Assembly: GCA_964035575.1 (NCBI GenBank)
Contig: OZ037837.1
Coordinates: 1,860,001-1,924,000, forward strand
Direction: 5' to 3'
DNA: 64,000 bases
From: Rhynchopus sp. YZ270_cl-10
Taxonomy: Eukaryota
Positions 22,044 to 44,935 of this stretch are shown one piece after another. Position numbers and translations under genes: made by a program. Below the pieces are notes generated by a model. The model was not told the DNA's origin. It made no database searches and saw nothing but the letters and a program-made list of their open reading frames with translations. The first letter of the stretch is position 1. Every line of letters starts with the position of its first letter.

Positions 22044-22045
22044 TT

Positions 22046-22194: not shown

Positions 22195-23310
22195 CAGTGC
22201 TGTCGCTGAGTTTTGAAAAAAAATTTAATAGGGAGGGCCCTGGTAGGGCAGGCCAAAAAAAACCCGCAAAAAAAGGTCCCGAGCTTTCCCCCCGTAAAAG
22301 CGGTCGCTGCGCGCGCTTCGCGCGCGCGACTCCCTGCCAGTGCAAGAAGGTGAGGCTCTTTCTCCCCTCTGATGCACAAAATCGTGAAAGGCGGGGGAGG
22401 GTGAACCACAAGCCGTAGTTGGTGTCAGCTGTCGTATCAGTAACCTCAGTAGATCTATAAAAGAACCACGGCAACCACGGTATTTCTAGGGGATGGCTAG
22501 CTACCATGAACCCCTGTCCAAAGTATTAATATTTCTCGAAAATTCTCTAAGTACACAGAAAACACACGGGTGTGCCCCAAAACACATTTTTTCCAGTGTC
22601 CCGCAGTGTCCCACCACTTTTTTTCGCTTTTTGTGGGAAAAAAAATACAAAAAAAAAATACATGGTTCTGTAGGGGCCGAGTACAATGGCGTTTTTCACG
22701 TGATTTTCATGATTTTTCAAAGTGGCCAAATATCATGTAAAATACTGCCTCCCACCCAACATTCTCTCCACAACGTCGTTCTGACACCCATATGTCCAAA
22801 CAAAAGATGTCTTTATATATATTTTTTCCACACCCAGCGTATCATAAAAATGCACATATCCACCAAAATCCACTAACCCACCGCAGGCAAATTTCTTAAC
22901 GATGTGTACTTCTGAATTGATACTGAGGGATTATGCGGCAACCGCTGCGTAGTTCTTTGGGGTAAAACGCCACCTGGGGTCACAAGGCCCAGGCTCCTAC
23001 CTTTACAGGTAGGAGAGCTGTTGAGTGACCCATCGGACAATCGTTTGAGGGGTCTTGGTGAAGAATTTCGAAAATTGATAAAAACGAATAAGCGTCTCAC
23101 AATTGAACCCAGATTCTGCTCCAGATATGATGTTTTGATGTGTTTCTGCCTGAATTGTGTGAGGGGGCCCGATTTTGTTGCGATAAATTACGAAAATTGA
23201 TTATAACCAATAAGCGTCTCACAATTGAACCCAGATTCTGCTCCAGAAGACAGGAGGCTTTGGTGAGGGATAAGTACATCCTCATCTGTTCGTACGCGAA
23301 TCCGACCAGC

Positions 23311-26265
23311 ATGACGGGAGACCCGAAGAGGAGAGAAGGGGACTACTTCGCAGGCGTTCGCGAAGAGGACCGGTCAACAAGGGATGGGTGTCTGCGATAC
23401 CGTCTGCACTCCTCGCAACACGGCACCGTCGGGTATCGCGACGTCGAGGGGAGGTTCCCCCATTCGGTAATGTACGTTGCGAGGGAGAAAAAGACGCCAG
23501 AAGAACCTGTGCGGAAACAGCCGGTCAAGAATTTGAAGAAACCCGGATTTATTCAGCAGTTCAACACCTCGCAGGCTAAGCAGCAGCAGAAGGACAAGGT
23601 CGAGAACAGGAAGCGCGAAGAAGAGGTGGCCGAAACGGCACGCAAGTACTCTTCGCAAGTTGCGCAGCTCCCGTACCGGTTTCTCTTCCCCTCAACTTTG
23701 CACGAAGAGTGCGGCGAAGGACGCAACAAGCAGTTGCTGGAAGAGCACCGACTGGCGGATCCTGTGACACAGGAAGGTGCGTGGGCGTGCCTCAACTGGG
23801 TGCGCCAGTCGGTGACCTCGTGCGGAGAGCCGAACAGGAAGATGACGAGGTTTTCCTGGGAGCAAATGCTGCACTTTCAGCAAATTGCGACCTTGCGGAG
23901 CAAAGCGGTGTGGAACGAAGACCCGAAGGAACTGAGCCTGCACTGGAGAGGTCTGTTTGACGTGGCTTGCGTGAGGCACGCAGTGGCATCCTTGTTTCCT
24001 GACTGGATATGCTCCTCCATACCGCTTCATCGGGAGGAGGGGAACCAGCAGGCGACATTGTGCAAAGATGCGCACCTGCACGACACGGTCCGCGCCCTCA
24101 TGTTTGAGAGAGACGGGCATTGGGTGGTGGTTTTGGTTGTGTCGTATTCCCCAGAGATCGACCTCGGGGACCCAAACACTGAGACGACCGGATTTGTGGT
24201 GAAGGACACGGACAGGGCTGAGAAGCGTTTCGGCCTGTTGGACGACGCCATCGACCACGCCACCAGAGGGCAACCATTTTCCTGGGAAGCTCCGCTGGTA
24301 CTTGCCGTGAAGCGGGGAAACTTCAAGGGAAGGTTCCACACTGCTGCCACCCTGCAGGTGTACGCCATCCGGAAGGTGAACCGCAGAGTGACGGACGCTG
24401 TGCTGGCGGATGAGGCACGTGCTTGGGCAGCCCGTTGCTTGGAGACGTTGACGGAGACGCTGAATGCAGAGATTCAGCACGTGATGAATGCGGCACGTGA
24501 GGCTGTGAGTATCCGTGTTGATGAACTTCGGGACTACCTGTGGCAGCGGAGGCGAACGCCGCACGTTGTGTCTTCCTTGTGTGACTTGGTGCGCAGGGGC
24601 ATGGGTAGTGCTGTGCAGTGTGCGAAGCTGCGCGGTGGCAGCGACACAGTCCTGAGGAATTTGCTGGAGGACACAGTGGGTGCTACGAACGAACGCACGA
24701 ACGACATGTCTGAGTCTGAAGATGACCGATCAGGAGCGGTGAGCTGCGAATTGTTCCCTGTGTCGGAGCCACCACCAGCAGCACCAGCAGCACCAGCAGC
24801 ACCAGCAGCACCAGCAGCACCAGCAGCACCAGCAGCACCAGCAGCACCAGCAGCACCAGCAGCACCAGCAGCACCAGCAGCACCAGCAGCACCAGCAGCA
24901 CCAGCAGCACCAGCAGCACCAGAAGCAGCAGCAGCACCACCACCAGTACCAGCAGAAAGTCCGAGGAAGCGGAGGAGAGCTGGGACTGATGCATCCCAGA
25001 ATGTTGTAAAGAAGCGTAAGCCTGCACCGAAGAACGGTCAGCAGCAACAGAAGCAGCAGCCACCACAGAAGAAACAGAAGCCACAGAAGCCACAGCAGCC
25101 ACAACAGCCACAGCAGAAGCCACAGCAACCACAGCAGCCACAACAGCCACAGCAGAAGCCACAGCAACCACAGCAGCCACAACAGCCACAGCAGAAGCCA
25201 CAGCAACCACAGCAGCAGCAGAACCCACACCAGCCAGGCGTTGGGGAGGCGGAGGAGATGGAGCAATTGCAGGCTGCCCTTGATGCAAGCCTGGAGCCTC
25301 CACCAGTGCCGAGGGGGTTCCATAACTTCGGCGTGACGTGTTTCATCAACTCTGTTTTACAGTGTTTAGTGTACACGGACTCGTTTGTGAAGTCCCTCTC
25401 GAATGCTGGCCCTTTTTCGAGGGCGATACGCGAAGTGGTGGCTCAGTCAGTGGCTGCGGATGCACAAGATGTGATCCGCCCTACGAGCATACGCGACGCA
25501 TTAAATGCGAAGGAGCCTGGGTTCACAGATACGCAGCAAGACTGCCACGAGTTTTTTCTTGTGCTGACGGACGCCCTCGAGGTGGAGGCAAGACGTGGGA
25601 AAGTTAAACATCCCACCAACGAAGTGCTGGATCATGAGACTTTGTCTGTGGCCTCGGCACGAGTAGCGAACTCTTACCTCGAGAGTTCTAATTGTCCAGC
25701 AATGGGTTTTCTTTATCTACAGTATGTCCAGACATCCACTTGTTTTGGCTGTGACACTAAGCGCCCCACCGTCACCCCCTCATTCAATTTTGTATTGCAC
25801 TTCCCCACGCGGGACACCGGTACATTGCCAGTGGCATTGGGTGCGTTACTTCAGCACCTCTTTAGGGTGGAAGAAATGCACGCAGAGCAGGAGTACAAGT
25901 GCCTGACCTGCCACCCGCAGACCTTCGCAGCCAGAATGGTGACACGTGTGATGCGGCTGCCAAATGTTTTGGCACTGCAATTGGCGAGGTTTCACGACCC
26001 GCTCAATAAGATCGAGACGATCGTTGAACTTCCGCATGAGTTGGACATGGCACCATACGTGCACTCTGACTCTCTAGAGGTGCAACTTCGGTATGACCTG
26101 TATGGTGTTGTCTGTCACCACGGACACAACCTGGGGCACGGCCACTACAGTGCATACGTGAAGTCAGAGGGTACGTGGTATCATTGCAATGATTCAAGTG
26201 TGACAAAGAACCCGAGGCTTCTCTTTTCAGAGGCATACCTTCTTTTTTATCATCGTCGGGGGTGA
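23311..26265 (+). CDS. Ubiquitin-specific protease (peptidase C19) with long N-terminal region, ~984 aa from the first ATG (frame open from 23140)
   Basis: Cys box GFHNFGVTCFINSVLQCL, QQDCHEF, two CxxC pairs (CFGC, CLTC), LPNVLALQLARF, His box YDLYGVVCHHG..GHGHYSAYVK..WYHCNDSSV and terminal AYLLFY. Basic NLS-like PRKRRR and KKRKP. Confidence 0.93.
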   Translation: MTGDPKRREGDYFAGVREEDRSTRDGCLRYRLHSSQHGTVGYRDVEGRFPHSVMYVAREKKTPEEPVRKQPVKNLKKPGFIQQFNTSQAKQQQKDKVENRKREEEVAETARKYSSQVAQLPYRFLFPSTLHEECGEGRNKQLLEEHRLADPVTQEGAWACLNWVRQSVTSCGEPNRKMTRFSWEQMLHFQQIATLRSKAVWNEDPKELSLHWRGLFDVACVRHAVASLFPDWICSSIPLHREEGNQQATLCKDAHLHDTVRALMFERDGHWVVVLVVSYSPEIDLGDPNTETTGFVVKDTDRAEKRFGLLDDAIDHATRGQPFSWEAPLVLAVKRGNFKGRFHTAATLQVYAIRKVNRRVTDAVLADEARAWAARCLETLTETLNAEIQHVMNAAREAVSIRVDELRDYLWQRRRTPHVVSSLCDLVRRGMGSAVQCAKLRGGSDTVLRNLLEDTVGATNERTNDMSESEDDRSGAVSCELFPVSEPPPAAPAAPAAPAAPAAPAAPAAPAAPAAPAAPAAPAAPAAPAAPAAPAAPEAAAAPPPVPAESPRKRRRAGTDASQNVVKKRKPAPKNGQQQQKQQPPQKKQKPQKPQQPQQPQQKPQQPQQPQQPQQKPQQPQQPQQPQQKPQQPQQQQNPHQPGVGEAEEMEQLQAALDASLEPPPVPRGFHNFGVTCFINSVLQCLVYTDSFVKSLSNAGPFSRAIREVVAQSVAADAQDVIRPTSIRDALNAKEPGFTDTQQDCHEFFLVLTDALEVEARRGKVKHPTNEVLDHETLSVASARVANSYLESSNCPAMGFLYLQYVQTSTCFGCDTKRPTVTPSFNFVLHFPTRDTGTLPVALGALLQHLFRVEEMHAEQEYKCLTCHPQTFAARMVTRVMRLPNVLALQLARFHDPLNKIETIVELPHELDMAPYVHSDSLEVQLRYDLYGVVCHHGHNLGHGHYSAYVKSEGTWYHCNDSSVTKNPRLLFSEAYLLFYHRRG
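24775..25230 (+). repeat. Coding low-complexity linkers in USP: (PAA)n and Q/P/K repeats
   Basis: (CCAGCAGCA)n at ~24775-24921 and CAGCCACAG-type repeats at ~25038-25230. Confidence 0.9.
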
Positions 26266-29200
26266 TTCTTTTTGGTGCATCGAGACGTTATGTGTTCTTT
26301 ATAAGATTGTCTGATGGAGGCAGTATCGGCGACAGTGGGGGAAATAGAGGGGGGTATGAGTTCAGAGAGACTGGGGTTATTGTCTCAGGACCGAGTCAGG
26401 TAGTTGAACTTCATCCTTTTTTAAATAGTGTGGATCTTTGCAGTCGTCGGTTATGTCTGAAAATTCTTAAGTCCACTTTGTGAGGGCCTTTTATTAACAT
26501 TAAAGGCCACCAGACCTGACGCTAAACAGTTACGAAAATCGCACTTTTTGGGCTTGGAATTCGGGTTTTTTTACGGGTTTTTTTACACGGGAAAAAGGTA
26601 CATTTTTCGACCCTGGTCCATGTCTGGTGGTGAAAATCATAATTTTTTTTGCCCACATGATACGTTTCGAACACACTTATCGCTAAATATGCCGTTTTCC
26701 CCGAAAATTTTGAGAACCCCACGTCCAATTTCTTTCGTTTTTGGTGCTCCGGGAGGGGTCGATATTGACAGGTCGCTGACAGGTCGCTGACACAGGGACT
26801 CTATACACACACCCCCTGATATTGACAGGTCGTTGACCGACTTCCGAAAGCACCAGTTTTGGAAAAAAAAATTCCGCGCTGCGCGCGAAAAAGGTCCTCA
26901 GAAGCTCAATTCCGAAAGCAAATACGGGGAGCGAAGTCTTCCAACTCCTCCGCCATCAGCAGGAACACCTCCGTTTTCTCTTGAACCTGTTACGCTTGTG
27001 CTGAGAAACAAGGCAACAGCGAGTTCAAGAATATTCCCCATCTTTTCGTTGTTAAACTCGGTGCCTGTTCATGAAGAACCATCAGCTTCTCAATAGTGCT
27101 GTGAGAAAGGCGGTGGCGTCTCTTTGCGTAGATGTAGTCAGGAGAGAGAATCCTTGTTCAACAGCAACCAAAGACGGGGAGTGCACTACCGGTGCAGCCT
27201 CCAAAACCCGTGCGAGAGTGTCCCCATTTTCCAAGAAAACTTCGAGAAAACCGCGTTCTGCCACGGTACGCCACATTTCAAAATCGCGCTTAAAATTGCA
27301 CTTTTTTCGCAGCCAAACTGTGTCATAAGAAGGGTGTAATGCAAGCTTGCGCCGCAGGCGCACGGTACGCTACTTTTTTCTTTGGCCATATCCTTCTTTC
27401 TCACTCCTTATTGGGTTCGACGTGTTCCGTCCGTCAAATGGTGGGGTCACAACATGCAGCAAAGTTTGCAACTACGCAAACTGCCCCCACGTTCACTTTG
27501 TACTTTTCCTTCAGAAGACAAGTACCATCGGGACCATACGGAACTGAATTTTTTTTTGCGAAGCAAAAAAAAAATATATATAAAATGGCGCCGCAGGCGA
27601 AAAAATAATAAAACCTACATTCTCGAACTTTTCTACTGACGTGATTTTCATTGGACGCATCCCCTTCTCCAATTCAATTCAATAAAACTGTAGCTTTCTC
27701 CTCAGAATTCGTGAAACAACCCGCGCCAAGTCTGCTGAGTCATACAACCCGCGCCAAGGCTGCTGAGTCGGATGACAAAGAGTGAGGGCGAAGCACCACA
27801 CGTATGAGCCCAAATGCTGCGCTTGTATGCTGTATGCAAGTCGTATCCTAAACAGTAAAAAACAAAGGTGTGTAGGTTAGTTGCCAACAGTACGTCCCTC
27901 GACGGTACTGTGCGTAAAACCGGCCCAAGGGTACTATGACGCATACATATAAGCATAACATGCGACGAGCGCTAGGCCCAACGTGCATAACCAGTAACAA
28001 ACAGAGGGACGCATCTGCGTGCTTACTTTCTTACTTTCTTTCTTTCCTTTTTTTTTTTTTTTTTTTTTGAAAAACGAGAAACGCTAATTGTATTTTTGGC
28101 CCCCTCTGTGAGTATTGATTGAATTGGAGTCGGGGAGCACAAGCAAAGGGCAATGAAAGGAAAACAATGAACATTAAACAAGCTAGAAAAGAGACAGTAT
28201 ATATTTCCGAACACACACACACACACACACTATTCAAATCATTCAATCCGAAAGAGCCCAATCATTTCGGTTTGTATTATTTCCTTACAAACCGTACGCG
28301 TACCGCTTCGTATGTTTGTATACAAAAATAATAAAACCTACATTCTCGAACTTTTCTACTGACGTGATTTTCATTGGACGCATCCTCCAGGACCCTAAGG
28401 ACCCCGAGGGACGCTGCGCGAACAAAAACCCCAAAACATGGTATAAAAAATTGAAATTGCACCCTACCTTTCCTTTTTATGTATTTCCCCACCCCCGCAA
28501 AGAATAAAGCAATAAAAACAATAAAGACAAAGGAGAGAGGTTGTGGCGAAACGCACACACCTCTACCTGTCGGTGCAATGTGGCCCTACTCCAACCCGAA
28601 AAGTGGAAGAGGATGGGAGTAGGGGTACGGTATTCAACTTCCTTACAGTCTTGCATGTAATCATAAAAGGTAATCTGGCCACAGTACGACAATAAGAACC
28701 GGACAGAAGAACAGAACCAAAATAAGAGAATAGGCATTGTAATATGAAGTGCCTTTCGTGCACCTACATCCTTTGAGGTGGCTTGCAGTCCAAGGTCCGC
28801 TCGTGGGAGTGTGGTTATGTTTGTGACTGGTGTATCAGCGGATCCCACCCCTGCAGGCCCACATCTACTACGAGTTCTCCAAGGACTATGAACTACAACC
28901 CACGGAGAAACTGAAACTGCATTCCTACCTTTCCCTTATTGTATTATCCCACCCCCGCAATCACGAAAACTAAAGGCAAAATGGAGAGGCTGTGGTAGAA
29001 TGCACACCTCGGCCTATCGGTGAGATGTGTCTCTACGTCAAACCGCCTCAGAATAGAAACAGGGAGGGATTAAGGGCACAGTTCAATATACTATTTGCAT
29101 AGTCGGGAAACGTAAACAGAATTCAACATATGCATTGAAATGATAGCGTGAAATGGATGAGAAAACGGGCTGGACCATTTGAATCCAGGTACCGTAATAG

Positions 29201-30502
29201 TAAAAACACCTAATACACAAAACATGTGGAACGCAACACAATTTGGAAAAGACGCGATGGTGAACAAACAACCCACGCAGTGCACTGTTGGCGTAACCCT
29301 CAACAAAGGTTCGTCAGTCTCAGCAAACCCCCCACAGTGGGCACGAGGCACCACAGCAACGAGGTAGCATCAACCCTACGTGTTTGTCACTCAAACTGCA
29401 TACGTCTTGGAAAAGAAGTAAGATAGATAACAAGTGCGAAGTGCGCACTAAACCCCTCACCCTCGAATATTTCGTTCTCGTCTTCCTGGCTCGCCAAAGG
29501 AATCTGTCGCTAGGCCAGGCTCCACAACATCAGTACTTCGACGACCAAATGCAATGAGCAACTGTTGCAGGACCACCGATCACTCTCTTCATCCTCGACA
29601 GTGCGTAGCTGTGTGTCAACTAAGAAGCTGCGCGCAGGCCTCAGTGTTGTTCTAAACGGGTACGCAACAGCCGTAGCCTGACAGCACTGCTCAGCTGAGG
29701 AAGTCTTCGGACGGAAGGCACGGCAGAACAGGCTCATGGGGTAGAACACTACGGTGGTCTAGAGAAGATGATGCTGAATGTACTGTGCATGATGACGGCC
29801 GATGAGTAGGAGCAGGAAGGGCGTAGAGAGCTAGAAAACGCTACACTAAAATCGACCATAATCGGGGACATCGTCATCGGCAGTGCCTACTGCGAGACCC
29901 CACCGCGGACATATACTAGCGATGAGGAGCACTCTGTGAGGTAACATCCTGGATAAGACCCTCAACACCAAAGGGGATATGTTAGAGAGCTTGACAGCAG
30001 TCCTATGCTGGTCCACTTCCACGGACGGAAACATTAACACGGTCTGCTCAGCTCCCCAGCATGCCTTGAGCACATGTTCGATACTGCTGACGCACACTGG
30101 TGCATTCTTGCCGATCAGGGAGAACTGCATCAGTCACTGCGCGAGCGCGTAGCCGAGATCACACTCTCAGCGTGCGGTAACCAGAGGTACTGCGCCGTTT
30201 GCCGAGCGTGAGACCGCATCTGGACCTGCTACAGCAGCTGGAACCGCGTCGTCTGCGGCGTCTGAGCAGGCGCAGTCCGGAACTGCGGCGACGACTGAAC
30301 ATGTGACCGCGGAAACAGCGCTGAGCGTGCGGCTTCTAACTGGCACTGTACCGCTATGCGCCGTAGACCTACACCTGTGTACTATAATGCTGCGGCAATA
30401 ACCAGACGCAACGGAGTCAAAGTGGGTGGCAAAAGTGCGCCAAACGGTCGCAGTTACGCAGAGAATAATTGCAGTGCGCATCAAGAAAATGAGAATACTT
30501 AA

Positions 30503-30916
30503 CCTATCCACTACCACCTTTACATATATGTAAAGGTTAATCGGCACTAGCCTCCAAGACATTAAAAACTGGTCAAAAGTGGAAATTTTTTTTTTTAATG
30601 GCTTCCGGGAGGTTGAAATGTGTGATTCCCCTATTTTTTTTTTTTGGATTTTTTAGAATTTGATTTTTGATTTTTTCCGCCACCCACAACACGCACATCA
30701 AGGAAAATGCGTGAAACAGGGGGGGACGGGTCACAGCCGAACAAATGCGATTTTTCGATTTTGATTCTCAGAACCGCAGAAGTCCCCGAAGACCATACCA
30801 AACCACCTAGAGGACCCAAAAAATGCACCATCGACCCGGTTTTGACCCAGAAACACTCAGATGATTCCAAAAAAATAAACGGGAAAAAAACCCCACACCC
30901 CCTGGTAGTGGATAGG
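30503..30916. mobile_element. piggyBac-like MITE, 414 bp
   Basis: TTAA at 30499-30502 and 30917-30920. Perfect 14-bp TIR CCTATCCACTACCA. Confidence 0.9.
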
Positions 30917-31439
30917 TTAATATTTCTCTTTAATTGTGATCCCCCGCCCCCACCCCCGTAGATAGTAAGCAATAAGGACAAAGACAATAATACAATCAGA
31001 CATATAAGGACAATAAGGAGCGTAGTAGTGAGACGCCCACAACGCGACCAGTCGGTAAAAAGGGACTGGGATGGTGTTCTATTCCCTCTTAAGCGTCGCA
31101 CGCAACCATACATCGAAGTTGTGCGTAACGGTGTGTGTAAAAATGGGACATACAGTGCGTCAACATGCTACTTTGGCGCTGCGCATACAGCTGAGGCTGC
31201 GGCTGGACTTGTGCTGCGCACTCAGATGAAGCAGCGGCCGTCATTAGAGAAGGGTACACCACCGCAAACCGCCTTCAGTCGACACTGAGCTAAAAACGCT
31301 ACGCCAAAAAATAATAGGCGTAACGGGGTGAAATGTGAGGCAACAGTGCACCCAACGGTCGCCTCTGTGCGCAAAGAAACTATAGTGCACTGCAAACAAA
31401 TGTGCACCTGTGTGTTACAAAGGAAGCAACAGTGTGACG

Positions 31440-32721
31440 TCAAGCAGAAAACGGTGTGTCGGCCTTGTTGCTGCGCTGCCTACAGAAGCTGCATTTACTG
31501 CGCTGCCTGCAGAAGCTGCTGCTGCTGTTGTTGTTGCGCCGCCTGGATGGGGGCGGCTGGTCTAGCTGCTGTGCTGCCTGCAGAAGCTGCGGCTGGACTT
31601 GTGCGGCTTGGCTCCACAGCTGGGCGACGTCCCGGATGACGTTTTGTAGGGCCAGCTGCGGAGCCAAGAGTTGCTGCAGGAGCGGCCCGAACGCATCAGG
31701 CTGGGGCATGGCTGGCGCTAGCTGAGGAACCCCCTGCTGCTGAGCCGCGCCCGGGGCCGGCGGCTGGGCTTGCTGGGCAGGAGGGGGTTGTTGGGCCGGT
31801 AGGGCCAGGAGCTGCGCGATCAGCTGCGCCGGCTGCTGCTGCTGCTGCTGCTGCGGACCCGGCTGGGTGGCCGCGTGAGGCCCGAGTAGCTGCGATGGCC
31901 TGCGCGAGACCCTGGGCCGGAAGCTGCGCCATCTGCGGAGGCGGCTGCTGATTCGGCTGTCCTAGCAGCTGCGCCGGGAGTACAGGCGGCTGCGGATGCT
32001 GCGCCACGTGCCCTAACTGCTGCTGGTTTTGATGTACGGGATGCTGCGCCGGGAGCACAGGCGGCTGCGGATGCTGCGCCACGTGCCCTGGCTGCTGCTG
32101 GTTTTGATGTACGGGATGCTGCGCCGGGTGCACAGGCGGCTGCGGTTGCTGCGCCACGTGCCCTGGCTGCTGCTGGTTCTTATGTACGGGATGCTGCGCC
32201 GGGAACACAGGCGGCTGCGGATGCTGCGCCACGTGCAACGGCGGCTGCTGTTCCTGCGGTACGGGTAGCTACGGTGGCGGCTGGTTCTGCCGCTGTGCGA
32301 TGAGCTGTGCGATGAGCTGTGCAATGAGCTGTGCCAACTGAGGCTGCGGCTGGTCCTGAGGCGGACCCCCCTGCGGAACAGGCGCAGGATCCTGGTGTAG
32401 TGGCGGCTGAGGCAGGATCGCATCCTGGTCTACAGCGGCCGGCTCCTCGTCCACCCAGGCGCATACAGGGCAAGTAAACTCAGTGGTGTGATAATTGACG
32501 AGAAAAGCGGCGGCGATGGCTTGCGTGGGGAGCTTATCCTTGACACACTGGTGATGGGCGCCGTATCCGCAGATCCAGCAATACTGCGTGTTATGTGCGA
32601 CGGGGCCTGAGGGGAAGACACAACCATGCTGAAGGAGAGCGGGCTGCGCCGGAGTAGGCAAGGGTCTAGCGCTCACCCAATCCACCTCATCCAAACAATG
32701 TGTCTCTAGATCTGCCCTCAA
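31440..32721 (-). pseudogene. Disrupted ORF1/Gag-like gene of SDR2: PHD-like Cys/His finger followed by Q/P-rich repeats
   Basis: C..CWICGYGAHHQC..FTCPVC pattern. One in-frame TAG at 32269-71 separates it from the same-frame 31696-32238 ORF, which has 75-bp (25-aa) HVAQHPQPPV repeats. A frameshift follows. It lies directly behind the 5' A repeat. The Gag identity is inference from position. Confidence 0.5.
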
Positions 32722-33362
32722 ACGGCATTTTTTTTTTTTTTTTTTTTCAGGATTTTTCAGGATTTTTTCAGGATTTTCCCAGGATTTTCAAATCTTTTCT
32801 CTTTTTTTTTTTTTTTTTTTTTGAAAAACGAGAAACGCTAATTGTATTTTTGGCCCCCTCTGTGAGTATTGATTGAATTGGAGTCGGGGAGCACAAGCAA
32901 AGGGCAATGAAAGGAAAACAATGAACATTAAACAAGCTAGAAAAGAGACAGTATATATTTCCGAACACACACACACACACACACTATTCAAATCATTCAA
33001 TCCGAAAGAGCCCAATCATTTCGGTTTGTATTATTTCCTTACAAACCGTACGCGTAACGCTTCGTATGTTTGTATACAAAAAATTAGGGTACGGTGTAAA
33101 AATATAGCTATTTACACCACAGAGCAGTCACTCAACGAACCCTTTTTGCGGAGCAAAAAATGAAAACTGGCGCCGCAGGCAAAAAAAAAAAATTGAAGGT
33201 ACAGCCTCCCGGGTCAACCCTACAGAATTTTCCCGTAAAAAAAGACTCCTCAAAATTTCCCGGAAAAAAAAGGATTTTCCCACGTAAAATTTCCCGTAAA
33301 AAAAACGACCTCTCAAGGATTTTGGAATTCCACTACGCGGTTTAGCAACATCCCTGAAGGCC

Positions 33363-33396
<34 letters not shown>

Positions 33397-33443
33397 CACG
33401 AATTGTTTCCAGGGTTTTATATAGGAATTTTTTCCTTACCAAA

Positions 33444-34282
33444 CAGGGGCAAAAACTGAGGTTTCATTTTTTCTCACCCACCCACCCAAAATCAAAGCGC
33501 GGAAAATTACTACCCCAACGGCCCTAAAAAATTGATGCTACCCACACGTAACGTAAAGTCGAAGACATCCTTCACATAATGGAAAGGGATAATCCGATTC
33601 CCAACGAACTGCCGGACAATCTCCTAGGGGAGATCATCCAAGAATGTGTGTCACGAAAGAATCGTGCACTCGAAACTCACCTATGGTGACGATGATCTGT
33701 GACAGTCGCCTATCTAGATCGACTAGAAAAGCTCCATAAAGATTTTTTTATTCAGGAGCAGGGGCTTATATAGCGTCACCCAAAGGTTCCTGGCGAAGCC
33801 ACGGTACGCAACATTTTTAAAAAATGTTGACATAAAATGGCACTGACGTTAGTAATTATCGTCAGTTTCCGTAAATTTTACTTAGGTATTTTGCTAAAAC
33901 GAAAGTTTCTGGCGAAGCCACGGTACGCAACATTTCAAAAAAATTCCCTTAAAATTGCACATATTTACAACCAAACTATGTCATGGGAGGGTGGTTGCAA
34001 TCTTGCGCCGCAGGCGCACGGTACGCTACTTTTTATTTCGCCATGCTGTATGCTTCCTTTTGCCACCGGGCCGTCCTTCCATTTGCCCGGGCTGTGGTTT
34101 CTTCGGTACGTATTTCTTTGGCATTTTGTGTTTTTTTCCTGCTGTGGCGGGTTCCTACGTCACGAGTCGTGTTCTAAGCCAGTAAAACGCCGAAAAAAAA
34201 AATTTTTTTTTTAAGGTCCGAAAAGGGGAATTTTTTTTTTTTTTTTCAATAACTGAGGATTGCCCTCAGTTCTGACCCCCTA
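33444..34282. mobile_element. Possible older hAT-like MITE
   Basis: CAGGGGCAAAAACTGAGG versus reverse-complement TAGGGGGTCAGAACTGAGG. Contains the shared hairpin cassette. No TSD found. Confidence 0.35.
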
Positions 34283-34935
34283 TATAAAAGTCTGATTGTT
34301 TCTCTCTCGCCTTGTCTTCATTTCAAGTTATGCCACACCCCTCTCAGCAGCCTGCTGATCAGAGTAAATGTTAAAGTATCAGCCTTTCTAGGTGTTCTTG
34401 AGTGAACAATGCAAGCATCCTCTCCAAAGCTTTTCTGTTGCGATTCTTTCTATTCCGATTTAGCCTTTTCACAAGTTGTGTAATATTTGCAAGCACTCTG
34501 TTTTGTCAGTTTCTCTTCCTTCTTCGACCAACAAAGATACCACACCACCCCAGACCCTTTTCAATTTTTCATTTCCTCTATTCTTCCCATCCAAGCCCTC
34601 CCCACACAATTCTGTTCCAGATGTAAATCTTGCCGTAATTTAACCATTTCTGTAATCTGTGTTCGTGCCGCAGGCGCAAGCGGCACTTGAAACATTTGAA
34701 ACAACATTGTATTGTGCTAATTGGTCGCCACCTGAAGTATCCGTAATTGAACTAGTTATCAAATCTGTGGTCAGTCTCATGGACGAATCATTGAATGCTG
34801 CATGCGCTGCCGACAATTGAAACGTTTGAAACAATATTGTATTGTACCAATTCACGCGAGAGCCCCCAACCCCAAAATTCTGGGAGGAAAAAAAGGGGGA
34901 AACAAAAAAAAAAAAAAAAAAAAAAAAAAAGGGAG

Positions 34936-35946
34936 CAGGCCTGGGCCTAAAGTGGGTGCCCGGGGCCCGATTTTGATTTTATTTTATTTTTTCTAAGGAT
35001 TTTACACGGGGGAAAAATTATTTTTTCTAAGGATTTTATACGGGGAAAATTTATTTTTCTAAGGGTTTTTCTTAGGGGAAAAAGTCTGGGGGGTCGGGCC
35101 GGGCCCCGTGTGGCTGAGAATAACTCGCACTCTGCCCGCCAGAGTGCGGTACCAAGCCATAATGAACAAAAAAAGTCTCCACCCCGCTTCCTTCGGTCTC
35201 GTCCCTTTCACCTCCCGCACAACAGAATAAATAATAATACAGTATGGTGCGTGTGACTGCAAACGTCGAGGGAACCTTGCTTCTTGCAGTGCTACAAGTG
35301 CTCGCCACCACGGTGGTAGCAAAGTGCATTGCGTTGGCGCACTTGGGCAGGCCCTGACGGCACTGAGGAACGAAAAAGAAAAATAATTCAGCGCCTCCCA
35401 GGTCTGCACCTTTAAAAAAAATTTGCCTGCGGCGCCATTTTCCCTTTTTTGCTCTGCAAAAAAGGATTCGCTGAGTGGCTTTGTGGTATAAAAGCGGCAT
35501 TTTTTATACTGTACCCTAATTTTTTTTCGCCTGCGGCGCCGTTTTATATTCATCCCGAACATTCGGGGTGCACGTAGCGCGTAGCGCGCCCGGGTTTAGG
35601 ACCCCTTCTTGAATTTCGAGGGGGCGGTTCACGTTACAGTGGGTCCAGAATCATAGTTCAATTTAACCCCGCTAAGCAACTCGCTGGTGGTAATGACCAA
35701 AACGTGTATCAGCCAAGAACTTGCCCATTTTTTTCAAAATGACCCCGTGACAGTGAGGGTAAAAGCTCGGAAAACCCGAAAAAGGCCAAAAAAAACCCCC
35801 CGAAAAGGGAAAACCGAGAACATATTTCGGCAGGGGGCAGCGTGTTCTCAGAAAAATCCAAAAATTGCCTGTAAAAATCCTTAGAAAAAACCTGGGTGCC
35901 CGATCCAAAAAAATGGAAAAAACCCCAGGGTGCCCGCCCACCCCTG
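34936..35946. mobile_element. hAT-like MITE, 1011 bp
   Basis: 8-bp TSD AAAGGGAG at 34928-34935 and 35947-35954. TIR CAGGCCTGGGC / CAGGGGTGGGC. Confidence 0.85.
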
Positions 35947-37409
35947 AAAGGGAGATACTGGGGGGGAGCTATTAAAGTATACGTATACTTTATTCGGCGG
36001 GAATTACTGCTTAAATGGCCAAAAAACGAAAAAGGAAAAAAAAAAAAAAAACACTGTTATTTTGGGGTTTCTAGTGGCCGAAACCTCGCGAAAACACCAC
36101 CATTGGCATTTTTGGGCCAATCCCAGCCAGTGGTGGGGTCAATGTGGAAAAATGAACAATTTTTTGGTGACTTAAATTTTCACAAATCTGAACCCCATCA
36201 GCACCAATCGTGTAAAAACTGATACACGCGTTTTAGGTCAAAAATACTCGTTTCTCAGCGCAAAGTGACCCCATCACAGCACGCACAGAATCCGGACCAC
36301 CGAAATCAAAAAAAAATACTACGGTGTCAATAACTATCTTCGCCCACACAGGAAAACGGGAAACGAAACAGGGGGAGAGTTTGTTAGTTGTACGCTTCCA
36401 CCCTTCCACACACACTCAGGACTGTTGTAATGCTCTTTTTGGTATCTTTTTTTTTTTTTTTTTTTTTTTTTTTGAAAACTGAATGTTTACAAAAACAGAG
36501 CCAAATAGAAAAGGTAAGAAAATGAAAGTCCTGAAGTACAGAAAGTGATGTGTGAGAAGGGAGGAGCACAAGTGAGGGTGAAAACAGTTAGAGCGACCGT
36601 AGCATTTCCCCTGTCAACTGCGTTTGACCTATAAAAATACTACGGTGTCAATAACTATCTTCGCCCACACAGGAAAACGGGAAACGAAACAGGGGGAGAG
36701 TTTGTTAGTTGTACGCTTCCACCCTTCCACACACACTCAGGACTGTTGTAATGCTCTTTTTGGTATCTTTTTTTTTTTTTTTTTTTTTTTTTTTGAAAAC
36801 TGAATGTTTACAAAAACAGAGCCAAATAGAAAAGGTAAGAAAATGAAAGTCCTGAAGTACAGAAAGTGATGTGTGAGAAGGGAGGAGCACAAGTGAGGGT
36901 GAAAACAGTTAGAGCGACCGTAGCATTTCCCCTGTCAACTGCGTTTGACCTATAAAAATACTACGGTGTCAATAACTATCTTCGCCCACACAGGAAAACG
37001 GGAAACGAAACAGGGGGAGAGTTTGTTAGTTGTACGCTTCCACCCAGGACCCTATGGGACGCGGTAGCGCAGAAAAAAAGAATGCCCCAACCACTCCCCA
37101 GCCTTTAAAACAGAGAAAATTATTCGTCCAAAACTACAGCCTCCTGAGCGTTCGTGCCTCGTGTGTATTCGTCTGCCTCTTGCATCGGAATGTTAACGTA
37201 GACACTTCTGATCCGTATGTACTTGTTTCTGGCGACGTCGAATCGTGCAAGCAGCAGGTGTGCCTGGTAACACGTTAAGTGACCCGCGTTAATATAATGC
37301 ACTGCCGCCAGGTTGTCGTGCAGGTTGACAGATTTGGTTAATTAACCGCAGTCGGAGCTAATGAGCTAAGGCGCTAATGAGCGAAGGAGCTAAAGAGCTA
37401 AGGCGCCAA

Positions 37410-37630
37410 GGAGCTAAGGAGCTAAGGAGCTAAGGAGCTAAGGAGCTAAGGAGCTAAGGAGCTAAGGAGCTAAGGAGCTAAGGAGCTAAGGAGCTAAGGA
37501 GCTAAGGAGCTAAGGAGCTAAGGAGCTAAGGAGCTAAGGAGCTAAGGAGCTAAGGAGCTAAGGAGCTAAGGAGCTAAGGAGCTAAGGAGCTAAGGAGCTA
37601 AGGAGCTAAGGAGCTAAGGAGCTAAGGAGC
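37410..37630. repeat. (GGAGCTAA)n microsatellite, ~27 copies
   Basis: Directly visible. Confidence 0.97.
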
Positions 37631-38629
37631 GTGGCAGCGGTTACTAACCGTGGTCGTCATGGGACCTTCACGAAGGATGAGGGCGCATGTGTCTACTTGC
37701 AGGGAAGCCAGAACCGCAGATAACCTTGTTGCGTATACCTCCTTGACGAAAATATGTATGTTCATAACAACATCAAGTGGTTAATGAACGAGCCTTGCAG
37801 GCAGCAGGTATGTCTGGTAACACGTTGAGAAACCCCTGTAAATACAATGCATTGCCGCCAGGTAGTCGGGCAAGCTGGCAGGTTGATAGATTTGGTTAAT
37901 TAACCGTAGTCGGAGCTAATGAGCTAAAGAGCTAATGAGCGTAGCAGATTGGTTAATAAACCGTGGTCGTAATGGCACCCTAGTAAATCTAATGTCTTCG
38001 TACACGGCCTTGCATACGAAGGCAGCACCGTGCTGTCTCCAGGAGACTCTACTCTTATGTGCATTGCTCCTTTCTGTTGTGGTGCCTGCGTTGTTAAGGT
38101 TCTGCGATTGGCTTTGCGGGCGTGCGCCTATTCATGACAACTACATTTGTAGGGTACAGCGTGTACAACGTCAGGTCACGCAGAACTGGATCCTCCTCTT
38201 GACAGCGCTCTCCTTCGCAAGCAACCCTACCTGGGCGACGTTGCCCCTACGCGTGGTGCAAGAGTGTAGCAGATTGGTTAATAAACCGTGGTCGTGGCAC
38301 CCACACGAAGGGTGAGGGTGCATGTGTCTACGTACAGGGAAGGCAGAAACGCAGATTTCTTTGTTGCGTATACCTCCTTTACGAAAATGTGTGTGCCTGG
38401 GTCGCACGCACCTTGTGAATCTCGGTCTGGGGAATCCATCCAGAAGAGCCGTCCATACGGAACCAGCGGAAGTGGTGACTGCAAAAAACTGAAGTTTGAA
38501 TAAAATGGGTCTCAATGCCCAAGACAGCGAAGCGGTGACAGCAGAATACGTAAGATTGAACAACAGGCGCAATGGCCCAACACAGCGATGCGATTAATCG
38601 CAAAAAACGGAGGACCCGTGGCCCAAAAC

Positions 38630-39580
38630 AGCGAGAACGGTAATTGCGAAAACTCCCGTTGAGCACCTTCGTGAAGACCAGTGTGAGGGTGCCGTCTGCA
38701 GGGTAGTCAGCTTCGTAGACATCCCTGTGGTCGCCGAGGGAGTCGAGTTCGTAGCCTTGCGTGTTGCGCAGTGAGAGCATGTTCCTGTATGTCATCCTCA
38801 GCACTCCTGTGCACCTGATTGCCCAGCACTTCGAGGTGGTTGCTGAGGTGGTCGCGTCCATCACACCGGCGTATGACACAGACGTGCTCACTGGACAGCT
38901 CGTGGCAGGCGGCAGCGTCTCTGGTAGTGCTGTCGGGTACGTTTTGTGGGGCAGAACGTATACACCTTGTACACCGCCCATGCCTGTGTAGTCCGACATA
39001 TTCAACCGTGTGTCGTCCGTGTCGACCAGAGATAGTGTGCCAAGATGCCCGCGCACGGCAACACCCACCGGTACTTACCCGCCTCCCTCACGGAACGTGA
39101 CACTGTGTCGAAAGTAGAGTGCCACGCAGGCAGTGTGAGCTGAGTTCTCTTGGGGAAGGATGCGGCAGGCAAAAGGGTCATGCTCGCGTCTTTCGTGCAC
39201 GTCCAGCTCAGGTGGAAGGAGATCGGGAACACGTCAGCGTGAACTCCCCGTTTGCAAGGTATTTACGCACCAACGAGGCGCCTCCGTTTCGTCCCTAAAT
39301 GGCAGTGCGGGCAGTGCCCCAGTGCAGGCCCACGACATGGCAAACGGAAAGTCTGGAGACGTCTTCACCAAGAGATGCACCTCAAAGTCGCCTGACACAT
39401 CGTAGCGTGCAGTGAAGGTGCCCTGCTCTGATGTGGTGTGCACGCTGCCGTTGCTGTGCCCCAGCAGGCACATCTCGTTGCCCACAGCACTGCCAATGTC
39501 CACTGCAACGTCAAGCACACCTTGGCACGGTATCACCCAGCGATGTGCATCCTCCCAGTTGGCCATCCTGAAGTGCGCTC
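38630..39580 (-). pseudogene. Fragmented host-like coding sequence inside SDR3, possibly CUB-like extracellular domains
   Basis: GC-richer stretch with three consecutive broken minus-strand ORFs. NWEDAHRWVIPCQG and SKCWAIRCTGVLRMTY resemble W-x-I-x-C CUB-like motifs. Weak. Confidence 0.35.
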
Positions 39581-39587
39581 CTCATTC

Positions 39588-40331
39588 ATCTCGAACAGCA
39601 ATGGTTAATAAACCTCTTCCAAATCTCGAACAGCAATGGTTAATAAACCTCATTCATCTCGAACAGCAATGGTTAATAAACCTTTTCCAAATCTCGAACA
39701 GCAATGGTTAATAAACCTCTTCCAAATCTCGAACAGCAATGGTTAAATATACCTCATTCAGCTCAAACAGCAATGGTTAATAAACCTCATTCATCTCGAA
39801 CAGCAATGGTTAAATATACCTCATTCATCTCGAAACAGCAATGGTTAATAAACCTTTTCCAAATCTCGAACAGCAATGGTTAATAAACCTCTTCCAAATC
39901 TCGAACAGCAATGGTTAAATATACCTCATTCAGCTCAAACAGCAATGGTTAATAAACCTCATTCATCTCGAACAGCAATGGTTAAATATACCTCATTCAT
40001 CTCGAAACAGCAATGGTTAATAAACCTCTTCCAAATCTCGAACAGCAATGGTTAATAAACCTCTTCCAAATCTCGAACAGCAATGGTTAAATATACCTCA
40101 TTCAGCTCAAACAGCAATGGTTAATAAACCTCATTCATCTCGAACAGCAATGGTTAAATATACCTCATTCATCTCGAACAGCAATGGTTAATAAACCTCT
40201 TCCAAATCTCGAAACGCAATGGTTAAATATACCTCATTCAGCTCGAACAGCAATGGTTAATAAACCTCATCCATCTCGAACGGCAATGGTTAAATATACC
40301 TCATTCATCTCGAAACAGCAATGGTTAATAA
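39588..40331. repeat. 33-36 bp minisatellite, ~22 copies, with 172-bp 5-mer higher-order period
   Basis: Core CGAACAGCAATGGTTAA. The variant GCTCAAACAG recurs at 39761, 39933 and 40105. Confidence 0.93.
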
Positions 40332-40368
40332 ATGTGGCTTCCAATTTTTTTTTTTTTTTTGAAAACTG

Positions 40369-42138
40369 CAGGGCTTCCCGCAGGATCTGGGGGTTTGGCC
40401 TCCCAGGGGGACCAGCCAAAAAAAGGTGAAAAAAATTTTTTTTTCGCGCCTTCAGGGTTTCCGCCAGGATTTGGGGTTTCAGAAATTGGGGGGGACCATC
40501 AAAAAGACCCCCCAAAATTTTTTTTCTCCCCGCAATAGCGGTCGTCGCGCGCTTCGCTGCAGGCCACAGAGTGGAGAGGCGAAGGGTGTGACAACCGTGG
40601 GAGTCTCCTTCTTGACAGCAAAGACAAGTCTGCTCTGCCAGCTTTGGCACAACTTTTTTGCGCCAGGCTTTTTAGCACCAGGTTAGATAGCCGTGCTAAG
40701 CTTCACAGCTGCGTTGTCTGGTAGAGGTAGGTAAGGGGTCTTGTGAGAGTGGAGGGTGATGGTATTTGCTTTTTTCCTTGTATGGCGCCACACAGTGATT
40801 GCAGTGCTGCAGTTGGAACATGTAATGAAAGTGTATGTACTCGTCGCTTGCCGAAGCCTCCTTTTAAAAGGGGCAATGCTCGGAAGTATCAATGGTATCA
40901 ATAATATCAACATCAAAGAGCCAGCAACACAGCGCCGCAGGCGCACGGTACGCTACTTTTTTATTTTTTTAGAGTTCGCCATCCCCTTTTCTTCCACTCC
41001 TTTTGACACAGCGAGTCAAATGCTCTGCACGGTGGGGTCACATGACCACGGGGGGTCATCTACAACCTCCAAAACCCATTTTTCTTAGGGGGGACCATGG
41101 TACCCCCCAAACCCCTGTAAAAATCCGGATTTTTCTGGGAAAAATATTGGGGGGGACCATGGTCCCCCCCGGTCCCCCTTGGCGGAAACCCTGGCCTTGT
41201 TGTGTGTGGTGTGTAGCACTAACGCTGACGCTACGTTACGTTACGTTACGCGCCTCTACGCACTTTAAGTGGTCAAAAATCATTTTTTCGCCTCCGGCGA
41301 AAATGTCCCGGTAAACCGTTAAAACTGCTGCATTCACTCGCATATTGCATATCATCTCACGTTCCCCACCTTTGCGGGATAAGCAAAAAAATCATGTCAG
41401 GTCGGTAGCGTGCAGACGTTTCCTAGTATAGACATCTACAAAAAGAAACGACAGTCATGGCAAAGGTTCCTGGCGAAGCCACGGTACGCAACATTTTAAA
41501 AAAAAAATGTTGCGCACCGATCAAATGGCACTGTCGTTGGTCATTATCGTCAGTTCCCGTAAATGTTACTTCCATATTTTGCTGAACGAAAGTTTTTGGC
41601 GAAGCCACGGTACGCAACATTTCAAAATATTGTGCTTAAAATTGCACTATTTTACAGCCAAACTATGTCATGCGTGGCTTGCAATCTTGCGCCGCAGGCG
41701 CACGGTACGCTACTTTTTTCCTTTCGCCATGTTGCATGCTTCCTTTTCCTTCGGCGTTTGACCAATTGAGTCGCGTTCTGGCTGTGACGGGGTCACTTTG
41801 TTCATGAGGCATACTCGTGGTTCTTTGCAACCGTTATATTCTGCCTCTTCCTGAGCAGATAACTTGGGACTCCGCCGGTCGCTTTGCAAATTCCATTATG
41901 GAAAGCTGTCTTGGTCCAGAGGACTTTTTTGGTGCCATCCTTTCCCCCTGTTAGTTGCCTGTATTTGGATGCGCGGGGACGGGAGGGTAGGAAAAAATTT
42001 AAAAAATGTGGAAAATTCCTAATAGGCAGCTTCGGAACACTCAACGGCAGGCTGGTCCCCCCTGGTCCCCCCTTATTTTTTTTTTTTTCCCCCAGGGGGA
42101 CCAGTGGTCCCCCCTGGTCCCCCCTGTGGGAAGCCCTG
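40369..42138. mobile_element. CAGGG-ended MITE with 5-bp TSD (hAT-like ends), 1770 bp
   Basis: 16-bp TIR CAGGGCTTCCC(G/A)CAGG. AACTG duplicated at 40364-68 and 42139-43. Empty site GAAAACTGAATG at 36474 and 36795. Confidence 0.9.
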
Positions 42139-44935
42139 AACTGAATGTTTACAAAAACAGAGCCAAATAGAAAAGGTAAGAAAATGAAAGTCCTGAAGTA
42201 CAGAAAGTGATGTGTGAGAAGGGAGGAGCACAAGTGAGGGTGAAAACAGTTAGAGCGACCGTAGCATTTCCCCTGTCAACTGCGTTTGACCTATAAAAAA
42301 TTTTTCGATTTTTTGTGCAAAACTTGCTGAAAAATTTTTTTAGTAAGAAAAATGTACACAAAAACCGTATACTTTATTTCACAGATTTACACGCTCAAAA
42401 TGGGTTTCCGCACCGTATACTTTATTACCCCCGTATACTTTATTAGCACCGTATACTTTATTAGCCCCCCCCCAGTAGTCAGACTTACCCTACCCTATTT
42501 TGAAAAAGTTCAGACTTGCCCTATGAAAAAGTTCAGACTTGCCCGAAAATAAGTTCAGACTTGCCCTAAAAGTGTTTTTAGGGCAAGTCTGAACTTATTT
42601 TTAGGGCAAACACTTTTTTTAGGGCAAGTCTGAACTTTTTTAGGGCAAGTCTGAACTTTTTTAGGGCAAGTCTGAACTTTTTTAGGGCAAGTCTGAACTT
42701 ATTTTTAGGGTAAGTCTGAACTTATTTTAGGGCAACAAGTCAGGCCACTTTGGCTGGGGCACTCTTGGGGCCCCATGTGGTATGACTTGTTTTATTGCCC
42801 TAAAATGCCTAACCGAGCCGGAGCCCAAAAATTGATGCCAGAAACCACCAGCCACCCGGAAAGGGTGAACAGGCAGTCCACGTTGGGCCAGAACCGGTTA
42901 CAAAGGAAGCCGTGTTCTGGGGCAACGTGGGGCGCAAAGTTTTACAATTTTCATGCACGGGTGCTCCACAAATTACCAAGTATTCCTTCTTTGTTGAATT
43001 GAGAGAGAGTCAGTGTTTAGCTACCACGCGGGTTTGCTTAGAATCCTTCGAGGCCGGCACAATTTTATTTATGTGGTCGGTTAAGACATGCCTATTGAAG
43101 AACAACGAGGTCATCGTTGAAAGGAGCGAACTCCCCTTCCCACAACATCTCTCACATTTCAACTCAGAATTCATACTTGGTTATTTGCTTTGTCCATACG
43201 CAATCAAATTGTCATGCTTTCAAGAGCATGCCTGGCCAAAATGCAACAACGTAGAAAAATTGTTGTTGTTCCAAAAGGCAACAAGACCACCCACAAGGGG
43301 TTGAATTGTGCACTGTCCGGGGGAGCGCAAAGTTTTTTCCCTGTACACAGTGGACACATCTTTATCACTTTGTTCCCACGGGGACACATTTGGATACTGC
43401 ACGCATGCAGAAGTGCCAAACATGTCCGCACGTGGAGTGGAGTGTCCATCATGTTTTCCTGGTTTCCAAAAAGCAGTTTTCTTGCACTTACTATTTGCCC
43501 CGGTGTCTGGCAATAGAAGTGGCTAACATTGTAATGAGTAGCATATACATACCGTTGATCCAAATGAGTAAGGCGACCAACAAGTCCTCTGGACTTTTTT
43601 GTTGTGACGACAATCGCGGAGTAATCCCGGAGAATTACATCCTCGTATAAAAAGTTAAAGGTAGAGGTGGGGAAACTGTAGCTATAGAAATAGTTGTTGC
43701 AGTAGTGCAGACACCCGAGGGTGCACCACTATGCTTTTCTTTGGTTGTATCGACAATTTTACGTACATGATGTAGGACCTGTACAATGTCGCCCAAAGGC
43801 TTTGTACTTACTGCAGTAATCGGTATTTTTTTTTTGTTACTACTACGTCGTGTTCTATGAGGAGTCGCGTTTGGGTGCGGAAGTCTTTTTTCTGGTCTCT
43901 GTTCTGTACGGGTCTCGGATCGTGGTGCGGTACTGCGGTGCGGTACCTGAGAGTTTTTTAGAGTGATGATAAAGGTCAGAGGGTTTTCCCCTCCCATTTG
44001 TGTCATTATTTAATTTTGCTCGGAAAGTGGGGTGTCCTGGACACGAGGAAATTCAGTTGCATGGAAAAAAAGTTGCATACCATAGGTTGCTCATTTCACT
44101 ACCAGGACTCGTCGCGAATAGCCCATACGTGCCCTAAACAGAAACGCAAAAACGACGACCGCCGGGCTCTGTAACCCAAGAGCCCCCAGCTTGCCCAATA
44201 AATAAGTGCAGGGTTGCCCTAAAAAAGTTCAGACTTGCCCTAAAAAAGTTCAGACTTGCCCTAAAAAAAGTGTTTGCCCTAAAAATAAGTTCAGACTTGC
44301 CCGAAATAAGTTCAGACTTGCCCTAAAAACACTTTTAGGGCAAGTCTGAACTTATTTCGGGCAAGTCTGAACTTTTTCAAAATAGGGTAGGGTAAATCTG
44401 ACTATTTCCCAAAAAAAAAAAAAAAAATGCCGGAAAACGCCTAAGTACAAAATAATACTTTGGACAGCTTTTTGTGAAGGAATTACCCTAGCTATCCACC
44501 CCCTAGTATTTCTAAAAACGAAAGTTTCTGGCGAAGCCACGGTACGCAACATTTCAAAAATATAAATGCGCTTAAAATTGACCATTTTTTCAGCCAAACT
44601 ATGTCATGGGAAGGGTGCATTGCAAGCTTGCGCCGCAGGTGCACGGTACGCTACTTTTTTTTCTTCCGCCATGCTGCATGCTTCCTTTTCCTTCGGCGTT
44701 TGACCAATTGAGTCGCGTTCTGGTCTCCCACGGTTGATGAAACGATGAGAAAAAAATCGCCAAAAACTCGTAACGATGGTTAGCAAAATGCCTGCCGAAC
44801 CCCTCCTCAAAAAAATAAAATAAAATAAAAAATCCTGGTAGGGCAGGAGGGCGGACCTTGCCCTACCAGGAAAAAAAACCAAATTTAATAGGTATGGCGA
44901 ATGCCATACCAGCCTGATCAGGCACGACAGCACTG

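What the first reader, a model, noticed from the sequence alone, without database searches (positions are those of the whole stretch)
22487..26510. Intact deubiquitinase (USP/C19) carried by a transposase-less TIR element
The only long intact ORF recognised in the whole nest is a USP with complete Cys/His/Asp motifs and basic NLS-like patches, lying between the TAG-type TIRs. The nested insertions all fall downstream of it, which suggests selection on the ORF. Known: Ulp1/C48 and OTU proteases occur as transposon accessory genes. A C19 USP in that role is not familiar to me. Inference: it could counter ubiquitin-dependent silencing or degradation, or simply be a Pack-type capture.
Basis: partly seen in the sequence, partly recalled or inferred. 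Interest (0 to 1): 0.78.

Follow-up and report, generated by a model that had tools for sequence, protein, structure and literature searches.

The report
Clipped deubiquitinase gene inside nested transposon
A ubiquitin-removing enzyme gene with all catalytic residues sits inside a transposase-less DNA transposon, but its coding front end appears cut off, so it is likely a deletion remnant of a longer enzyme-carrying element, a kind of cargo already reported in other transposons.

Summary
The USP is real: a 1044-codon open frame (23131-26265, first ATG 23311) with the Cys, His and Asp boxes, zinc-finger cysteines and two basic patches. It lies between 17-bp TAG-ended inverted repeats (22487/44505) with a 7-bp target duplication, nested in another TIR element within an adenylate-cyclase gene array. 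No transposase was found.

'Intact' and 'selected' are not supported. Contigs from two separate studies match the gene from 23250 onward at 99.7% but continue upstream into 1034 and 715 nt of other DNA. Coding-type codon bias runs to that junction and stops there. Listed differences between copies are 7 synonymous of 28, the neutral expectation. Diverged relatives (82-87%) and contig depths point to a young multicopy family.

Best reading (0.45): an internal-deletion derivative of a longer TAG/7-bp (hAT7-like) element that carries the USP as accessory cargo. Main rival (0.40): a piece captured or inserted from another multicopy unit.

C19 cargo is not new: UCH is a stable Helentron domain, and a C19-DDE transposase fusion is reported in Trichomonas. 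What remains open is an orphan 480-aa N-terminal region and the missing upstream kilobase.

The parts
22195..44935 (.). Outer TIR element (CAGTGCTGTCG ends, 8-bp duplication CTTGCAGT; hAT-like) inserted in an adenylate-cyclase gene array; host of the TAG element
22480..22486 (+). Left target-site duplication GTATTTC (alternative reading: 5-bp TATTT with CTAG ends)
   Evidence: contigs of a diverged subfamily begin at 22487 in X1, X4 and X7, favouring TAG ends and 7 bp
22487..22503 (+). Left TIR, TAG-ended
22487..22956 (+). Left arm of the TAG element; multicopy, with at least two subfamilies in the contigs
   Evidence: table 8 (depth about 1000 for the 99%-identical form, about 700 for an 83% form)
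22957..23249 (+). Very high-depth repeat including about 1.5 units of a 122-bp repeat; non-coding codon pattern; the boundary at 22957 is inferred from where contigs end
   Evidence: (depth 13,000-92,000)
23249..23250 (+). Junction where the USP coding DNA is joined to the repeat; X1 and X4 contigs continue into other DNA here
   Evidence: table 8 (records 6 and 15)
23251..26265 (+). USP coding region, likely cut at its 5' end; first ATG 23311 would give 984 aa
23311..24750 (+). Orphan N-terminal region, about 480 aa, no relative found
24773..25216 (+). Low-complexity linker: (PAA)n, two basic NLS-like patches, Q/P repeats
25315..26250 (+). C19/USP catalytic domain: N732, C737, QQD box, two CxxC, H1005, D1021
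26266..26510 (+). 3' flank shared with the main X1 contig, which ends at 26510 before very high-depth repeats; weak hairpin at 26485-26508
27578..35549 (.). Nested inverted-repeat element, itself holding further insertions (about 27605-33077; TTAA element 30503-30916)
   Evidence: joint 27604 to 33078
35950..44410 (.). Nested element with 21-bp subterminal arrays, holding a TA-duplication element (about 35958-42476) and two CAGGG/5-bp elements
44489..44505 (-). Right TIR
44506..44512 (+). Right target-site duplication GTATTTC

Best explanation
The window holds a non-autonomous TAG-ended, 7-bp-duplication DNA transposon (about 5.6 kb without its nested insertions) containing a USP gene whose coding front end appears cut at 23250, and it is likely an internal-deletion derivative of a longer, young, multicopy element that carries the USP as accessory cargo. 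Shown: the TIRs, target duplication and insertion-free contigs; the catalytic residues; the junction; diverged relatives of the USP. Inferred: a deletion ran from inside the 122-bp repeat into the ORF and removed 1 kb or more, possibly the transposase or a transposase-USP fusion head. A transposase elsewhere in the genome would move the element in trans. In full-length copies a nuclear USP would likely strip ubiquitin from the element's own proteins or from chromatin, as proposed for Helentron DUBs. This copy would drift neutrally, though an active 984-aa enzyme from ATG 23311 is still possible.
For: Junction: the X1 contig (2584 nt) matches 23250-24770 with 4 differences and has 1034 other nt upstream; the X4 contig (1625 nt, another study) matches 23250-24159 with 3 differences and has 715 other nt. 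Neither upstream part lies on 22000-23249, and no joint is listed there. Codons 23251-23310 have GC3 16 of 20 and a codon score reached by 0.8% of 378 stop-free control windows; the 40 codons before the junction are not coding-like. Multicopy: relatives at about 82% over 25844-26087 (X1, X4), about 83% over 24193-24324 (X1, X6) and 23 differences over 23570-23748. USP contig depths (409-694 in X1, 367-1064 in X4) are several times those of the lowest long contigs (about 92-154) and within 2.7-fold of the TAG left arm (1016, 991). The main X1 contig keeps the window's 3' flank to 26510. The USP is an unplaced long branch with about 30% identity to all relatives. Precedent for DUB cargo.
Against: No listed contig joins the TAG left arm to the USP or the USP to the right TIR (most rows are hidden: 1006 and 7366 pieces not shown). 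The tool states that depth is not copy number, and other families in the nest have similar depths (150-950), so the depth match discriminates little. No transposase or second TAG/USP copy could be seen: no genome was held, and the metagenome and viral scans gave nothing relevant. The run type is not on record, so X1 and X4 are assumed to be DNA. The left flank is itself a repeat with internal near-duplications, so part of the 7-bp match could be inherited.
Confidence: 0.45

Rival explanations
1. The USP piece comes from a different multicopy unit, either a fast-evolving host gene family or another transposon such as a Helitron-like element. It was captured (Pack-type) or inserted, 5'-truncated, into this TAG element only.
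For: Both studies' main USP contigs have an upstream context unlike the TAG arm. Pack-TYPE elements acquire gene pieces between neighbouring insertions (PMC8903248 section 9). UCH is an HLE2 domain. A weak hairpin lies at 26485-26508, just before the point where the X1 contig ends.
Against: No RepHel or other mobile-element domain was hit. The CTGA after the hairpin is followed by C, not T. The interrupted 122-bp unit does not resume downstream. USP and left-arm depths are of like size in two runs.
Confidence: 0.4
2. One reading: this copy is a complete, selected accessory USP gene of a transposase-less element, starting at ATG 23311.
For: 984 codons are free of stops, all catalytic residues are present, and no listed difference creates a stop or touches the catalytic triad.
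Against: Coding bias continues upstream of the ATG to the junction. 7 of 28 listed differences are synonymous, and 1 of 13 in the catalytic domain. At under 2% divergence an open frame is expected to survive by chance (inference). Insertion avoidance has p 0.21-0.045.
Confidence: 0.1
3. An ordinary single-copy host USP in its native place, with the repeats around it by coincidence.
For: The USP's GC and GC3 resemble the neighbouring cyclase genes.
Against: The whole block interrupts a cyclase array with two levels of TIR plus duplication. Insertion-free contigs exist and diverged relatives are present.
Confidence: 0.03

Closest known systems
HLE2/Helentron elements with a UCH (PF00443) accessory ORF (PMC11417382; passages and section 22 read)
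   Same: A USP-family domain carried in a eukaryotic DNA transposon, in an ORF separate from the transposase.
   Different: Here the enclosing ends are TIRs with a 7-bp duplication and no RepHel was found. The fish 'uncharacterized' USP clade in the tree does not group with this protein; that clade's link to Helentrons is my guess and was not tested.
Trichomonas vaginalis XP_001314237.1, transposase_11 (DDE) plus Peptidase C19 (PMC2836005, passage read; the paper it cites was not held)
   Same: A C19 protease associated with a cut-and-paste DNA transposon in a protist.
   Different: There it is fused to a DDE domain. Here no DDE domain is detected, and the region where it could lie is missing from this copy.
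Ginger1 and Mutator elements with Ulp1/OTU; Helentron VTD DUBs (PMC2836005, PMC9741609; passages read)
   Same: Ubiquitin or SUMO proteases as transposon accessory modules; the VTDs were shown active and were proposed to protect transposition proteins from the proteasome.
   Different: A different protease family; activity here is untested.
Pack-TYPE non-autonomous elements (PMC8903248; abstract and section 9 read)
   Same: TIRs and a target duplication around a truncated piece of coding DNA, with no transposase.
   Different: The examples read are 58-280 bp pieces of plant host genes. Here the piece is 3 kb, still open, and its source appears multicopy.
hAT7 families (PMC12730594; passages read)
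   Same: 7-bp target duplication.
   Different: hAT7 is defined by its transposase and reported from rust fungi; no transposase is available here.

Membership tests
Peptidase C19 / USP | Significant match to the UCH profile over the whole domain | tested here: met
   PF00443 positions 2-254 of 254, E 2e-44; USP2 chains at E 9e-27
Peptidase C19 / USP | Cys box with oxyanion Asn, His box, third catalytic Asp | tested here: met
   N732, C737, H1005, D1021 invariant in 41 of 41 aligned sequences
Peptidase C19 / USP | Ubiquitin-cleaving activity | not testable with these tools
   needs a Ub-AMC or Ub-PA assay
TIR (cut-and-paste) non-autonomous element | Terminal inverted repeats with a target-site duplication | tested here: met
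TIR (cut-and-paste) non-autonomous element | Insertion-free site exists | tested here: met
   X1 and X6 contigs run on past 22488 without the element; these are copies of the target repeat, not proven to be this locus
USP-carrying TAG family (accessory cargo) | Several independent copies with both TIRs and the USP | tested here: inconclusive
   Both parts appear multicopy, but no listed contig links them; no genome held
USP-carrying TAG family (accessory cargo) | Purifying selection on the ORF between copies | tested here: inconclusive
   7 of 28 listed sites synonymous, neutral expectation 23%; the list is partial and contigs merge copies
hAT / hAT7 | 7- or 8-bp target duplication and short TIRs | tested here: met
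   7 bp under the TAG-end reading; hAT7 in PMC12730594
hAT / hAT7 | hAT transposase in the element or an autonomous partner | tested here: inconclusive
   No Pfam hit in 126 ORF pieces; no genome to look for a partner
HLE2 / Helentron | RepHel transposase | tested here: inconclusive
   None in the window, but the DNA upstream of the USP in other copies was not seen
HLE2 / Helentron | subTIR pair, 3' stem-loop, T-T target | tested here: inconclusive
   One weak 7-bp hairpin at 26485-26508; no subTIR pair seen; the 5' part is missing
Pack-TYPE element | Truncated coding DNA inside TIRs without transposase | tested here: met
Pack-TYPE element | The captured piece traces to a host chromosomal gene | not testable with these tools
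   No genome held; the 1034-nt upstream letters are not printed by the tool

The most novel reading that the evidence does not exclude
A young hAT7-like family in a protist encodes a large protein in which a transposase or another unknown head is joined to an orphan 480-aa domain and an active nuclear USP. It would be a TIR transposon family whose standard module is a C19 deubiquitinase that counters ubiquitin-based host control, and the window copy is its deletion derivative.
Probability: 0.3. Interest if true: 0.6.

Novelty: new member of a known kind. Interest (0 to 1): 0.33.

Why it matters
If full-length TAG elements carry the USP as a rule, this adds a TIR-family case to the recurring pattern that DNA transposons recruit different deubiquitinase classes (Ulp1, OTU, VTD, C19). 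It would also offer a complete enzyme with which to test whether ubiquitin restricts transposition. If it is a one-off capture, it is an ordinary example of gene shuffling in a transposon-rich genome.

Tried and rejected
No whole genome was held, so copy counting and synteny could not be done.

The orphan N-terminal region gave nothing: 0 hits among 7996 scored candidates (lengths 541-1722 aa only); none of the best 150 rows of the 1.84-billion search matched it; Pfam at E up to 5 gave one sub-threshold row; PDB sequences 0; Atlas top score 0.77, then no usable hit; metagenome scan 0 of 87 stretches. The viral scan with the catalytic domain returned 0 loci.

Single-sequence models had pLDDT 39 and 38.5. 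Their fold searches gave no match at E 0.001 or Z 8; the VIA search on the second model was not run. Hermes hAT transposase chains filled 7 of the top 10 rows at E 0.1-0.3 and TM under 0.1, vanished, and are not counted as evidence. A resemblance of the GHW motif (aa 329) to Ulp1 proteases is recalled from memory and found no support.

A TIR pattern scan of metagenome contigs gave 1 match (L001). It lies beside an ARM-repeat ORF with no other similarity to the window and was rejected as chance.

An intron reading of the junction (AG at 23248-49) was considered. It would need X1 and X4 to be RNA, whereas they cover all 30 bins of a repeat nest; it would still place the upstream coding DNA outside the TAG arm. 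No RNA holder was listed.

The tree is the quick tree, 63 rows, not the finished careful one, and it lacks host USPs. Earlier scan notes returned nothing. The host taxon was not established: one paper search gave nothing useful. The HELIANO supplement (Table S11) was not read.

Full report
Observation. The frame 23131-26265(+) is open for 1044 codons; the first ATG (23311) gives 984 aa. Residues 729-1040 match Pfam UCH at E 2e-44 and USP2 structures at E 9e-27. The oxyanion Asn732, Cys737, His1005, Asp1021 and four zinc-finger cysteines are invariant in a 41-row alignment. Upstream lie an orphan region of about 480 aa, a (PAA)n run, two basic patches and Q/P repeats. Inside the nest, no other frame exceeds 231 aa except an antisense frame over the USP. 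Pfam found no transposase in 21 and 105 ORF pieces.

The element. A 17-bp TAG-ended inverted repeat (15 of 17) stands at 22487 and 44505, with 2 hits against 0.09 expected. It is flanked by GTATTTC on both sides. Three pairs of this quality occur in 20-46 kb and none in 30 shuffles. A reading with CTAG ends and a 5-bp duplication fits the window equally, but contigs of a diverged subfamily start at 22487 in three runs, and contigs lacking the insertion run on past 22488 in X1 and X6. The element sits in a CAG-ended element with an 8-bp duplication (22195-44935), which interrupts an array of adenylate-cyclase genes. Relatives of these cyclases form a large family, and some carry solute-binding domains. 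A eukaryotic, probably protist, host is my inference. Removing two nested blocks (27578-35549, 35950-44410) leaves about 5.6 kb.

The gene is probably not whole. In one search, the main X1 contig matches 23250-24770 with 4 differences but has 1034 nt upstream that lie nowhere on 22000-23249. An X4 contig from another study leaves the window at the same base, with 715 nt of other DNA. In the window, the DNA before that point is a repeat with depth 13,000-92,000. The 20 codons between the junction and the first ATG are coding-like (GC3 16 of 20; score reached by 0.8% of 378 control windows), and the 40 codons before the junction are not. So the reading frame likely began further upstream in the source and was cut here. 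The run type is not on record; coverage of all bins of the repeat nest suggests DNA.

Copy number and selection. Diverged relatives appear at about 82% (25844-26087; X1 and X4), about 83% (24193-24324; X1 and X6) and in a 3094-nt contig. USP contigs have depth 409-694 in X1 and 367-1064 in X4, against about 92-154 for the lowest long contigs and about 1000 for the TAG left arm. The tool warns that depth is not copy number, so this is a hint only. Of the differences listed inside the ORF (28 sites; the tables show 40 of 121 and 40 of 377 rows), 7 are synonymous, matching the neutral 23%; in the catalytic domain it is 1 of 13. None makes a stop or hits the catalytic triad. Two to four first-order insertions would miss the ORF by chance with p 0.21-0.045, and the ORF is TA-poor. 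Selection on this copy is therefore not shown.

Relatives. All USP hits are near 30% identity over the whole domain. In a quick tree of 63 rows the protein is an unplaced long branch outside the USP2-like and USP36/42-like groups. The N-terminal region has no relative in any search, and its models were unusable.

Mechanism. Most likely (0.45), a longer TAG/7-bp element carries the USP, and this copy lost 1 kb or more by internal deletion from the 122-bp repeat into the ORF, which would also explain the missing transposase. In full-length copies a nuclear USP would protect element proteins from proteasomal removal or alter chromatin ubiquitin; this step rests on analogy with Helentron VTDs (PMC9741609, passages). 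Nearly as likely (0.40), the piece was captured or inserted from another multicopy unit. No listed contig links the TAG arm to the USP, so the two cannot be separated here.

Known context. UCH is one of 20 domains stably included in Helitron-like elements, almost only in HLE2 (PMC11417382, passages and section 22). A Peptidase C19 fused to a DDE transposase in Trichomonas is cited in PMC2836005 (passage). Seven-bp duplications define hAT7 (PMC12730594, passages). Pack-TYPE capture is described in PMC8903248 (abstract and section 9). Passages of PMC6431247 mention no USP cargo. My searches did not return a stand-alone USP in a hAT-like element, but subscription journals and Repbase are not covered.

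Verdict. The feature is real, the gene is probably 5'-clipped, its link to the TAG family is unproven, and C19 cargo in transposons has precedents. It is a new member of a known kind, interest 0.33.

Noticed in passing
window 31440-32787 (-): A frame with a PHD-finger-like Cys/His pattern (pattern recalled; no Pfam PHD hit) followed by frame-shifted P/Q/A-rich coding DNA. It lies between 287-bp direct repeats headed by poly-T (28043-28328, 32796-33082); possibly a decayed retroelement ORF.
   Followed up: partly
window 2606-48505: A tandem array of at least four broken or interrupted adenylate-cyclase genes (88-96% DNA identity), from a family with hundreds of relatives in the protein collection.
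   Followed up: partly
window 20189-22043: A separate TIR element (26-bp TIR, palindrome-rich subterminal repeats) in the same cyclase copy, about 150 bp from the outer element.
   Followed up: no
window 48789-64000 (+): A very long gene with an apparent signal peptide and about 170-aa repeats, with broken frames; no family was assigned.
   Followed up: no
window 40369-42138 and 40453-41193: Two CAGGG-ended elements with 5-bp duplications, one inside the other.
   Followed up: no
window 26535-27850: Extremely high-depth repeats (up to 330,000 in X1 and 500,000 in X4); 68 contigs have varied loose ends behind 26855, marking an element end.
   Followed up: no
window 43220-43728 (-): Cys-rich broken frames inside the element with 21-bp subterminal arrays; no Pfam hit.
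   Followed up: partly
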